Origin: a virus
Reading direction: 5' to 3' (one strand)
UHGV virus genome: UHGV-0283311
DNA length: 46,932 bases
The translations under genes and the position numbers were made by a program. Below the pieces are notes generated by a model. The model saw only the letters and a list, made by a program, of their open reading frames with translations. It had not been told where the DNA came from and did no database searches. Below are positions 33,500-33,561 of this stretch, one piece after another; the first letter of the stretch is position 1; each line of letters starts with the position of its first letter.

Positions 33500-33561
33500 A
33501 TCATCTTAAGTGCTACCATTACACCAACTCGACATCTGCCGAGTGAAGGAATCGAACCTTC
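33500..33561 (-). ncRNA. tRNA-like fragment: orphan T-arm, adjacent 7-bp hairpin, D-arm-like motif
   Basis: plus 33545-33561 gaagg-aatcgaa-ccttc T-arm; hairpin actcgac-atct-gccgagt 33527-33544; minus-strand gtgtaatggtagcac 33510-33524; no 5' acceptor partner found. Confidence 0.35.

What the first reader, a model, noticed from the sequence alone, without database searches (positions are those of the whole stretch)
33500..33561. Orphan T-arm with an adjacent acceptor-like hairpin and D-arm-like motif
A good T-arm (gaagg-aatcgaa-ccttc) is followed on the transcribed strand by ACUCGGC-agau-GUCGAGU, where the would-be 3' acceptor strand pairs with the sequence immediately after it rather than with a strand 60 nt upstream, and then by a D-arm-like GTGTAATGGTAGCAC. 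A 13-bp inverted repeat (ctttgtagataag 33350-33362 with cttatctacaaag 33467-33479) brackets the neighbouring sequence. This could be a permuted or degenerate tRNA or a tRNA-like non-coding RNA.
Basis: partly seen in the sequence, partly recalled or inferred. Interest (0 to 1): 0.5.

Follow-up and report, generated by a model that had tools for sequence, protein, structure and literature searches.

The report
tRNA-mimic domain of phage Y-like RNA
The "orphan" T-arm, hairpin and D-arm are real and form the tRNA-shaped domain of a small non-coding RNA that lies about 1 kb downstream of a previously unrecognised phage homologue of the Ro60 RNA-binding protein, so Felix O1-like phages and many other phages probably carry their own Ro60/Y-RNA-type particle.

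Summary
On the minus strand, window 33483-33616 folds as a circularly permuted cloverleaf. In order it has a terminal helix P1, a CAGCAA motif, an anticodon-arm-like hairpin, a T arm, a closed 7-bp acceptor-like hairpin, a D arm, and the P1 return strand.

A covariance model built only from eight unrelated uncultured-phage sequences finds it at 57.6 bits (E 1e-11). All four main helices covary.

It is neither a decayed tRNA nor, most likely, a decoding permuted tRNA, because the anticodon-like loop is not conserved.

In 75 diverse phage loci chosen through that protein, all 33 RNA-model hits lie on the gene's strand, and many sit next to the gene.

The RNA fails Rfam YrlA and lacks YrlA's GNCGAA motif. 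I therefore call it a new variant of the Ro60/Y-RNA kind. Binding, processing and function are inferred, not shown.

The parts
33483..33616 (-). Whole 'long unit': a YrlA-like RNA with a permuted cloverleaf
   Evidence: cmsearch with model R1: 57.6 bits, E 1.3e-11, model positions 1-123 of 123. The MFE fold shows the same helices.
33607..33613 (-). P1 5' strand AGACCGU (an 8th pair is possible at 33606)
   Evidence: Pairs with 33488-33494. P1 is 98% paired, and all 7 pairs show changes on both sides in 32 distinct sequences.
33598..33603 (-). CAGCAA motif, 3 nt after the P1 5' strand
   Evidence: C, G, C and A of the motif are invariant and its last A nearly so in alignment A2. The 24-nt repeat family D18 has four copies. 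The motif is present in units next to the Ro60-like gene in many loci.
33566..33582 (-). Anticodon-arm-like ('V') hairpin UUUCU-CCGGUAA-AGAAA
   Evidence: This is the least conserved helix (77% of cells paired, often absent). The loop sequence varies between relatives.
33545..33561 (-). T arm GAAGG-UUCGAUU-CCUUC
   Evidence: The helix is 98% paired, and 4 of 5 pairs covary.
33527..33544 (-). Closed 7-bp acceptor-like hairpin (AS) ACUCGGC-AGAU-GUCGAGU
   Evidence: The helix is 94% paired, and all 7 pairs show changes on both sides.
33510..33524 (-). D arm GUGU-AAUGGUA-GCAC, preceded by the U8-like linker UG at 33525-33526
   Evidence: 95% paired. The D-arm sequence is nearly invariant across distant lineages.
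33488..33494 (-). P1 3' strand ACGGUCU, followed by the conserved tail GGUAA (33483-33487)
33633..33703 (-). Short paralogous unit c: AGACCAA-AUU-CAGCAA...UUGGUCU, with no tRNA-like insert
   Evidence: Copy of repeat family D18.
34037..34090 (-). Short paralogous unit b: AGGCCGU-AUU-CAGCAA...ACGGUCU, with a G-U pair in P1
   Evidence: R1 hit at 34032-34093, 17.5 bits, E 0.11.
34191..34256 (-). Short paralogous unit a: AGACCAA-UUA-CAGCAA...UUGGUCU
33337..33484 (-). Separate downstream structured RNA closed by a stem of about 23 bp.
   Evidence: Fold z-score -5.9. RNAalifold on 6 sequences gives 51 pairs, 11 of them with compensatory changes.
34595..36010 (-). 471-aa Ro60-like protein gene (Pfam DUF2828 + DUF7788; PHROG 850 'RNA-binding protein')
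34456..34576 (-). Two sigma-70-like promoter matches between the Ro60-like gene and the first tRNA. A further match lies at 36050-36079, upstream of the gene.
   Evidence: These are consensus matches only. Co-transcription of the units with the tRNAs is inferred.

Best explanation
The feature is the tRNA-mimicking effector domain of a phage-encoded, YrlA-type Y-like RNA. The proposed mechanism has four steps.

1. The RNA is transcribed on the minus strand together with the tRNA cluster.
2. Its ends pair in the short helix P1 (AGACCGU/ACGGUCU). P1 and the adjacent single-stranded CAGCAA motif form the scaffold shared by all four units in this window.
3. The interior folds like a tRNA whose acceptor stem is closed by a loop, so there is no free CCA end.
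4. The P1/CAGCAA scaffold is bound by the phage's own Ro60-like protein, encoded about 1 kb upstream on the same strand. The tRNA-like domain then serves as the handle that brings a tRNA-recognising or RNA-degrading host factor to the particle, or gates its access. Candidates by analogy with known Y RNAs are RNase P, the CCA-adding enzyme, TruB/Dus-type modification enzymes, or PNPase.

Shown here: the structure, its covariation, its homology to elements in many unrelated phages, the Ro60 fold of the neighbouring protein, and the same-strand gene-RNA linkage.

Inferred: expression, processing at P1, protein binding, possible RNase P cleavage in the acceptor loop, and the biological role.
For: Structure and homology:
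- MFE folds give the permuted cloverleaf.
- Model R1, built without any Ounavirinae sequence, finds the window element at E 1.3e-11 with every helix aligned.
- On 33 hits from loci chosen by protein, 94.2% of cells pair, against 37-42% when partners are slid. Of 29 pairs, 28 have changes on both sides. No shuffle out of 500 reaches the observed values.

YrlA likeness:
- The published YrlA layout is 5' motif, V, T, AS, D, 3' stem. M. smegmatis YrlA, which has a 7-bp AS, is cut by RNase P and receives CCA (PMC4201824).
- The Rfam YrlA model aligns related long units end to end, including the outer stem: L059 at 30.8 bits, E 2.5e-5, and L107 at 19.2 bits.
- Some relatives encode a discriminator plus CCA in the AS loop: Maleficent GCCA, L042 CCCA, L208 ACCA.

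Protein:
- ORF 34595-36010(-) has the Ro60 fold and a conserved MIDAS-like DxSxS.

Linkage:
- In 75 non-Felix loci fetched through the protein, 40 have a same-strand CAGCAA unit within 300 nt of the gene. There are 53 same-strand units within 300 nt against 3 on the opposite strand.
- All 33 CM hits are on the gene strand.
- 47 of these loci have no tRNA gene, so the link is to the protein and not to tRNA clusters.
- The gene also turned up next to units in loci that were found from the RNA side: L059, L154, L107, L150, L128.

Precedent:
- Phage Ro60 proteins with adjacent Y-like RNAs are known (PMC12135203; PMC4201824).
Against: - No expression, binding or processing data are available.
- The window element itself gets no Rfam YrlA match even at E<=10.
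- The GNCGAAN0-1G/CGAA motif that defines bacterial and phiLo Y-like RNAs is absent; CAGCAA takes its place.
- The protein has no Pfam TROVE match and no sequence-level match to any PDB Ro60. Homology rests on a predicted fold.
- Gene-adjacent units could in principle be cis elements of the mRNA, such as 3'-UTR stabilisers, rather than trans-acting partners.
- Phage SP116 has lost the AS, D arm and P1 3' strand through a T-arm-to-T-arm deletion, so the RNA is not essential for propagation.
- The alignment used for the covariation counts was fitted to the model, which favours the model's structure.
Confidence: 0.68

Rival explanations
1. A tRNA-shaped processing or stability element of the polycistronic tRNA transcript. 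It would act as a punctuation site for RNase P, RNase Z or RNase E, or as an exonuclease block, and work independently of the Ro60-like protein.
For: It lies in a tRNA cluster with no promoter-like site inside the spacer. The 7-bp AS stacked on the 5-bp T stem gives the 12-bp helix that RNase P recognises (established knowledge; PMC4201824). T4 and T5 tRNA clusters also carry stable tRNA-like RNAs of unknown function.
Against: The same RNA family sits beside the Ro60-like gene in loci that have no tRNA genes at all. The conserved P1/CAGCAA scaffold is shared with short units that lack any tRNA-like part. The D-arm sequence is conserved beyond what folding alone needs.
Confidence: 0.12
2. A decoy that soaks up host tRNA-targeting defence nucleases or tRNA-binding toxins, with or without the Ro60-like protein.
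For: It has a full tRNA-like body plus a 5-bp/7-nt anticodon-arm-like hairpin. Short units in other phages carry hairpins with loops of the form C/U-U-NNN-A-A. Phage tRNAs are known to counter tRNA-cleaving defences (PMC11464382, title and abstract as listed).
Against: The anticodon-like hairpin is the least conserved part (77% paired, often missing). Its loop differs even among close relatives. No defence target is indicated by any result here.
Confidence: 0.1
3. A genuine circularly permuted tRNA gene whose transcript is circularised, opened in the AGAU loop and used as tRNA-Thr(GGU).
For: All four arms are present in permuted order. Sf15 has a canonical CUGGUAA loop. REP5-7 records annotate a tRNA-Thr_GGT here. 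The phage encodes a polynucleotide kinase.
Against: The window has C33. Many Felixounaviruses have a 6-nt loop, L029 has anticodon AUG, and Maleficent has no clean arm. P1 is a plain helix without a bulge-helix-bulge. I know of no circularising tRNA pathway in enterobacteria (own knowledge), and no RNA ligase is annotated in the phage. The element shares its scaffold with units that are not tRNA-like.
Confidence: 0.03
4. A functionless remnant of two tandem tRNA copies: the 3' half of one followed by the 5' half of the next.
For: This is a plausible evolutionary origin. CCA is still present in the AS loop of some relatives. SP116 lacks the element.
Against: Compensatory changes occur in every helix across lineages that share no other DNA similarity. 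The element is conserved in about 250 Ounavirinae records.
Confidence: 0.03

Closest known systems
YrlA (Y RNA-like A; Rfam RF02553) of bacteria and some phages
   Same: A terminal stem formed by the 5' and 3' ends. The order variable hairpin, T arm, closed acceptor-like stem-loop, D arm. Near-invariant D-arm sequence. Encoded close to, and on the same strand as, a Ro60-type gene. The Rfam model aligns related long units end to end.
   Different: It lacks GNCGAAN0-1G and has NNN-CAGCAA after P1 instead. The window element scores nothing against RF02553, and relatives reach 19-31 bits against a gathering score of 69. The partner protein is DUF2828/DUF7788 rather than a Pfam TROVE protein. The RNA occurs as one of several paralogous units scattered through a tRNA cluster.
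Ro60/Rsr-Y RNA particles, including Thermus phage phiLo Ro60 with Yrl1/Yrl2 (PMC12135203)
   Different: About 12-16% sequence identity and no sequence-level match. The RNA motif differs. Binding and PNPase recruitment were shown for phiLo and are only inferred here.
Circularly permuted tRNA genes, reported in the red alga Cyanidioschyzon merolae, other algae and some archaea (organisms from my own knowledge, not read here; the held papers listed only mention permuted tRNA genes)
   Same: The 3' half precedes the 5' half, and the acceptor strands are joined by a short linker.
   Different: There is no bulge-helix-bulge, no conserved anticodon, and no known bacterial pathway for circularisation. 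It is opened at 26/27 by a conserved helix that also closes units that are not tRNA-like.
Dictyostelid Class I RNAs (Rfam RF01414; PMC7919456)
   Same: For the scaffold and the short units: a 6-7-bp terminal stem that covaries, the motif (CC)UUACAGCAA directly after the 5' strand, a start ...AG and an end ...CUG(U/G), and a length of about 60 nt. This family gives the only Rfam match at E<=1 in 60.7 kb of Ro60-like loci.
   Different: Scores of 17-29 bits lie below the gathering score of 41.5. The organisms and promoters are eukaryotic. No tRNA-like insert is known in Class I RNAs. A relationship is untested.
Stable RNAs of unknown function in the T4 (rnaC, rnaD) and T5 (RNA1, RNA2, RNA3 and others) tRNA clusters
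   Same: Small stable RNAs, some of them tRNA-like, embedded in phage tRNA clusters.
   Different: They have ordinary terminal helices with the T arm at the 3' side. They show no T-AS-D order and no P1/CAGCAA scaffold.

Membership tests
YrlA (RF02553) | Reaches Rfam's gathering score (69 bits) | tested here: not met
   No YrlA match on window 33300-33800 at E<=10. Related units score 19.2 and 30.8 bits.
YrlA (RF02553) | A terminal 5'/3' stem enclosing V, T, AS (closed acceptor-like) and D stem-loops in that order | tested here: met
   Layout as described in PMC4201824.
YrlA (RF02553) | GNCGAAN0-1G (CGAA) motif near the 5' end | tested here: not met
   The 5' region reads CAGAAGACCGUUUACAGCAAAACUUAAAC. 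There is no GNCGAA; the conserved motif is CAGCAA.
YrlA (RF02553) | Encoded within about 4 kb of a Ro60 orthologue and on the same strand | tested here: met
   The gene at 34595-36010(-) ends 979 nt upstream of the RNA's 5' end (33616) and has the Ro60 fold. The linkage recurs in diverse loci. Caveat: the protein is Ro60-like by predicted structure only.
YrlA (RF02553) | Bound by Rsr/Ro60 and carrying tRNA-type modifications (pseudouridine 55, dihydrouridine) | not testable with these tools
   Needs immunoprecipitation and modification mapping.
Ro60/TROVE protein family (for ORF 34595-36010) | HEAT-repeat ring plus a C-terminal vWA domain with a MIDAS motif | tested here: met
   [not shown]
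Ro60/TROVE protein family (for ORF 34595-36010) | Match to Pfam TROVE (PF05731), or sequence-level similarity to known Ro60 proteins | tested here: not met
   Pfam gives only DUF2828 and DUF7788. phmmer and a profile search against PDB sequences find no Ro60.
Circularly permuted tRNA gene | 3' half upstream of the 5' half, with acceptor strands joined by a short spacer | tested here: met
Circularly permuted tRNA gene | Bulge-helix-bulge at the leader/trailer junction, for a splicing endonuclease | tested here: not met
   P1 is a continuous 7-8-bp helix.
Circularly permuted tRNA gene | A conserved, canonical anticodon arm that specifies one amino acid | tested here: not met
   Loop variants CCGGUAA, CUGGUAA, CUAUGAA and CGGUAA, and no arm in Maleficent. 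The helix is 77% paired.
Canonical tRNA (RF00005) | Called by ARAGORN, or reaches the Rfam gathering score, with a 5'/3' acceptor stem | tested here: not met
   (22 bits, partial; gathering score 29).
Dictyostelid Class I RNA (RF01414), for the scaffold | Gathering score of 41.5 bits | tested here: not met
   Best scores are 28.9 bits (L172 unit) and 27.5 and 24.5 bits (L107). The window units are not reported.
Dictyostelid Class I RNA (RF01414), for the scaffold | Short covarying terminal stem, the 11-nt motif CCUUACAGCAA next to the 5' strand, conserved AAG start and CUGU end | tested here: inconclusive
   The design matches: the window has AGACC-GUU-UACAGCAA...GGUCU-GG, and L172 has the exact CCUUACAGCAA. 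Common descent was not tested. The DUSE promoter does not apply.

The most novel reading that the evidence does not exclude
The P1/CAGCAA RNAs and the DUF2828/DUF7788 protein form a large, previously unrecognised branch of the Ro60/Y-RNA world that is common in phages. Its RNA scaffold (short terminal stem, UUACAGCAA, CUG end) would be the same entity as the dictyostelid Class I RNAs. Since DUF2828 proteins also occur in eukaryotes, Class I RNAs would then be the Y-RNA-like partners of eukaryotic DUF2828 Ro60-like proteins. This would give a biochemical handle on an RNA class whose function has been open since its first description (cited as Aspegren et al. 2004 in PMC7919456).
Probability: 0.15. 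Interest if true: 0.9.

Novelty: new variant of a known kind. Interest (0 to 1): 0.74.

Why it matters
- What the tRNA-like domain of bacterial Y RNAs does, and what Ro60 does in bacteria, are still open questions. A compact version encoded by Felix O1-type phages of E. coli and Salmonella, with the protein gene and four candidate partner RNAs within 2.6 kb, would make these questions accessible to ordinary phage genetics and biochemistry.
- The result would give a function class to DUF2828/DUF7788. More than 2,200 clusters matched in one search. It would also define an RNA family that Rfam 15 does not cover.
- It corrects annotation. Records either leave this spacer empty, call small hypothetical ORFs in it, or call a 131-nt "tRNA-Thr".
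- It shows that "orphan" tRNA arms in phage tRNA clusters can mark tRNA-mimic RNAs.

Tried and rejected
- **Rfam:** all 4227 families were run on the window and on the 501-nt region. There was no family-level match.
- **Intron-containing or upstream 5' half of a tRNA:** the REP7 "tRNA-Thr" annotation spans 131 nt. Reading the minus-strand sequence, the 7 nt at its 5' end (GCCAAUU) pair with ACUCGGC at only 4 of 7 positions. Rejected.
- **Group I intron, attP site or hammerhead-type ribozyme readings of the conserved flanks:** considered from the sequence and dropped. No supporting motif was found, and Rfam was negative.
- **rrn boxA-like antitermination site** (GCUCAACAAAUUUACA after unit c): seen in only one unit and not pursued.
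- **T4 rnaC/rnaD and T5 stable RNAs:** fetched and folded. Their architecture is different and they have no CAGCAA units.
- **BLAST of the L006-type and L059-type elements against cultured phages:** no match, so these lineages are known only from metagenomes.
- **Sequence searches of the 471-aa protein against PDB:** no Ro60 found. Only the fold searches were informative.
- **AlphaFold-database fold search, meant to look for dictyostelid DUF2828 proteins:** the library was unavailable.
- **Literature searches** for permuted or tRNA-like RNAs in phage tRNA clusters, for DUF2828, and for Felix O1 together with Ro60 or Y RNA: none of the returned papers makes these links.
- **The relaxed regex for units:** it has a background of 65 opposite-strand matches against 195 same-strand matches. 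The linkage claim therefore rests on position and on CM hits.

Full report
**Context.** The window comes from a Felix O1-like phage. The 432-nt region around the finding matches about 250 Ounavirinae records, most at 95-99% identity. A cluster of 25 ARAGORN tRNAs lies on the minus strand between 29275 and 34429. The finding sits in the spacer 33337-33768, between tRNA-Asp and tRNA-Lys(UUU). It has to be read on the minus strand.

**Observation.** The 13-nt inverted repeat is real but lies at 33347-33359 and 33466-33478. No tRNA is called here. The Rfam tRNA model gives only a partial 22-bit alignment. That alignment nevertheless reveals an anticodon-arm-like hairpin, UUUCU-CCGGUAA-AGAAA, just upstream of the T arm.

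**Anatomy.** Minimum-free-energy folding of the spacer, and of 33484-33616 alone, gives a complete cloverleaf in circularly permuted order. An outer helix AGACCGUU/AACGGUCU encloses the anticodon-like arm, a 4-nt variable region, the T arm, the closed 7-bp acceptor-like hairpin, UG, and the D arm. The chain is therefore opened at tRNA position 26/27, and the acceptor end is closed.

**Close relatives.**
- The hairpin is maintained by compensatory changes: Sf15 has ACACGUU/GGCGUGU and Maleficent has ACCCUUC-GCCAAACA-GAAGGGU.
- The anticodon-like loop is not maintained. It is C33 here, CUGGUAA in Sf15, CUAUGAA in L029, a 6-nt loop in many Felixounaviruses, and there is no clean arm in Maleficent.
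- SP116 has deleted everything from the T arm to the T arm of tRNA-Lys.
- REP5-7 annotate a 131-nt tRNA-Thr(GGT) over the element, which does not hold up.

**A repeated scaffold.** The outer helix belongs to a four-copy repeat family in this window (repeat finder family D18). Each copy has the form CAGAAG(A/G)CC-NNN-U-N-CAGCAA ... GGUCUGG, and the inner helix positions covary between copies, including a G-U pair. Three copies are short: 34191-34256, 34037-34090 and 33633-33703. Only the fourth contains the tRNA-like insert.

**The same thing in unrelated phages.**
- Pattern scans of IMG/VR for a T loop followed by this D loop were filtered afterwards for complementarity of the two 7-mers. The resulting distribution is bimodal, with 42 of 153 matches at 7/7.
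- The 7/7 class includes AT-rich and other lineages with no DNA similarity to cultured phages.
- A sequence-independent grammar search found further copies with other D arms.
- All share a terminal helix of 7-10 bp that covaries heavily. A motif NNN-C(A/U/C)GCAA follows its 5' strand, and CU-G(G/U)U ends its 3' strand.
- A regex-plus-complementarity scan of the loci held at that point found 312 such units in 84 loci, with two length classes: about 45-65 nt and about 100-115 nt. Short units often hold only a 5-bp/7-nt hairpin.

**Formal test.** I built covariance model R1 from eight uncultured-phage long units, with my structure and without any Ounavirinae sequence.
- R1 finds window 33483-33616(-) at 57.6 bits, E 1.3e-11, full length. 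It finds short unit b through the scaffold alone at 17.5 bits.
- The model was then run on the 33 hits from loci that had been selected through the protein (see below). There, 94.2% of cells pair, against 37-42% with slid partners.
- In that set, 28 of 29 pairs change on both sides, and no shuffle out of 500 reaches the observed values.
- By helix, pairing is 98% for P1, 98% for T, 94% for AS, 95% for D, and 77% for the anticodon-like hairpin.
- The alignment is model-fitted, which leans towards the structure. The size of the effect and the hand-parsed tables agree with it.

**What it resembles.** YrlA, the bacterial Y RNA, is described as a terminal stem with a GNCGAAN0-1G motif, then V, T, AS and D stem-loops. 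M. smegmatis YrlA, whose AS has 7 bp, is cut by RNase P and receives CCA (PMC4201824). The crystal structure shows a close tRNA mimic without a free CCA end (bioRxiv 10.1101/312249). The Rfam YrlA model aligns related long units end to end, outer stem included (30.8 bits, E 2.5e-5; 19.2 bits). That is far below the gathering score of 69, and the window element is not matched at all. Some relatives still encode a discriminator plus CCA in the AS loop.

**The neighbouring gene.**
- Position and annotation: YrlA genes lie next to rsr (Ro60). Here the ORF directly upstream of the tRNA cluster on the same strand, 34595-36010 (471 aa), matches Pfam DUF2828 and DUF7788 and PHROG 850 'RNA-binding protein'.
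- Sequence: searches against PDB sequences find nothing.
- Predicted fold: an AlphaFold2 model from 41 homologues (pLDDT 86, pTM 0.85) has an all-helical N-terminal part and a vWA-like C-terminal part.
- Conserved motif: a DxSxS MIDAS-like motif is invariant.

**Linkage.**
- A profile of the protein found the gene beside units in RNA-selected loci of unrelated phages.
- Conversely, I took 80 loci fetched through the protein and set aside the five near-identical Felixounavirus loci. Of the remaining 75, 40 have a same-strand unit within 300 nt of the gene. There are 53 such units on the gene strand against 3 on the other.
- The grammar search found 17 T-AS-D hits on the gene strand and none opposite.
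- All 33 R1 hits are on the gene strand.
- 47 of the 75 loci have no tRNA gene. The RNA family therefore travels with the protein, not with tRNA clusters.

**Interpretation.** The best reading is a phage Ro60-like protein with a set of Y-like partner RNAs. One of them, the finding, carries a YrlA-type tRNA-mimic domain. By analogy with Y RNAs and with phiLo (PMC12135203), the scaffold would bind the protein and the tRNA-like domain would recruit or gate a tRNA-recognising or RNA-degrading factor. Cleavage by RNase P in the AS loop is possible, given the 7+5-bp stack. All of this paragraph is inference.

**Other items.**
It could be a second partner RNA.
- T4 and T5 stable RNAs are not of this type.
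- The scaffold's design matches dictyostelid Class I RNAs point by point: stem, UUACAGCAA, and AG start with CUG end. That family is the only Rfam match in 60.7 kb of Ro60-like loci, but below threshold. I record this as a lead, not a finding.
- None of the papers returned by the literature searches links Felix O1 or DUF2828 to Ro60 or Y RNAs.

**Verdict.** What is there is a new variant of the Ro60/Y-RNA (YrlA) kind.

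Noticed in passing
[not shown]
   Followed up: yes
It is conserved with compensatory changes between Felixounavirus and Mooglevirus, and its function is unknown. It may be a second Y-like RNA.
   Followed up: partly
window 34191-34256, 34037-34090, 33633-33703 (-): Three short paralogous units share the P1 helix, the CAGCAA motif and the GG tail with the long unit but lack the tRNA-like insert.
   Followed up: partly
L172 7410-7470; L107 4440-4490 and 4507-4586; L059 3427-3483: Short units resemble dictyostelid Class I RNAs: terminal stem, CCUUACAGCAA, CUG end, about 60 nt. 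Rfam RF01414 scores 24-29 bits against a gathering score of 41.5, and it is the only Rfam match at E<=1 in 60.7 kb of Ro60-like loci.
   Followed up: partly
window 32534-32640 (-): An uncalled tRNA-like sequence with a 7-bp acceptor stem plus GCCA, a T-arm-like GGGGUUCAACUCC and a loop CUCCAAA (anticodon CCA). Trp is the amino acid missing from the called set, but the D region and loop are irregular.
   Followed up: no
window 32776-32854 (-): A tRNA found by Rfam (31.7 bits) but not by ARAGORN. The ekra record annotates tRNA-Arg at the corresponding place.
   Followed up: no
L004 (Salmonella phage SP116) 501-586: A deletion running from the T arm of the element to the T arm of tRNA-Lys. It removes the AS, the D arm, the P1 3' strand, the long-stem RNA and most of tRNA-Lys.
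   Followed up: partly
L001 (Escherichia phage REP7) 350-480: The public record annotates a 131-nt 'tRNA-Thr_GGT' over the element, which looks like an annotation artefact. Other records place small hypothetical ORFs here.
   Followed up: yes
L002 646-720; L042; L208 7419-7549: In some lineages the loop of the closed acceptor hairpin begins with a discriminator plus CCA (GCCA, CCCA, ACCA). This would fit origin from tandem tRNA copies, or processing to a CCA end.
   Followed up: partly
L059 577-640, 1203-1265, 3425-3485; L107 734-795, 1753-1812, 4437-4493: Short units hold 5-bp hairpins with 7-nt loops of anticodon-loop form, such as CUUCUAA, CUUGUAA and UUGGAAA. They look like anticodon stem-loop mimics displayed on the scaffold.
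   Followed up: no
L201 7407-7565, L213, L240, L233, L188 (units next to the gene): Longer gene-adjacent units share a different conserved 3' hairpin (for example GGGUUAGAGGUAAAUGCCCC, GAGUUCGAAGUAAAUACUC) instead of T-AS-D. This suggests further sub-families of partner RNAs.
   Followed up: no
window 36050-36079, 34548-34576, 34456-34485, 33059-33087 (-): Repeated sigma-70-like TTGACA...TAnAnT promoter matches on the minus strand, upstream of the Ro60-like gene and of blocks of tRNAs.
   Followed up: no
L157 (Escherichia phage ekra) 10327-11022: Felixounaviruses encode a polynucleotide kinase, but no RNA ligase is annotated. This may bear on tRNA or RNA repair alongside the Ro60-like system.
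   Followed up: no
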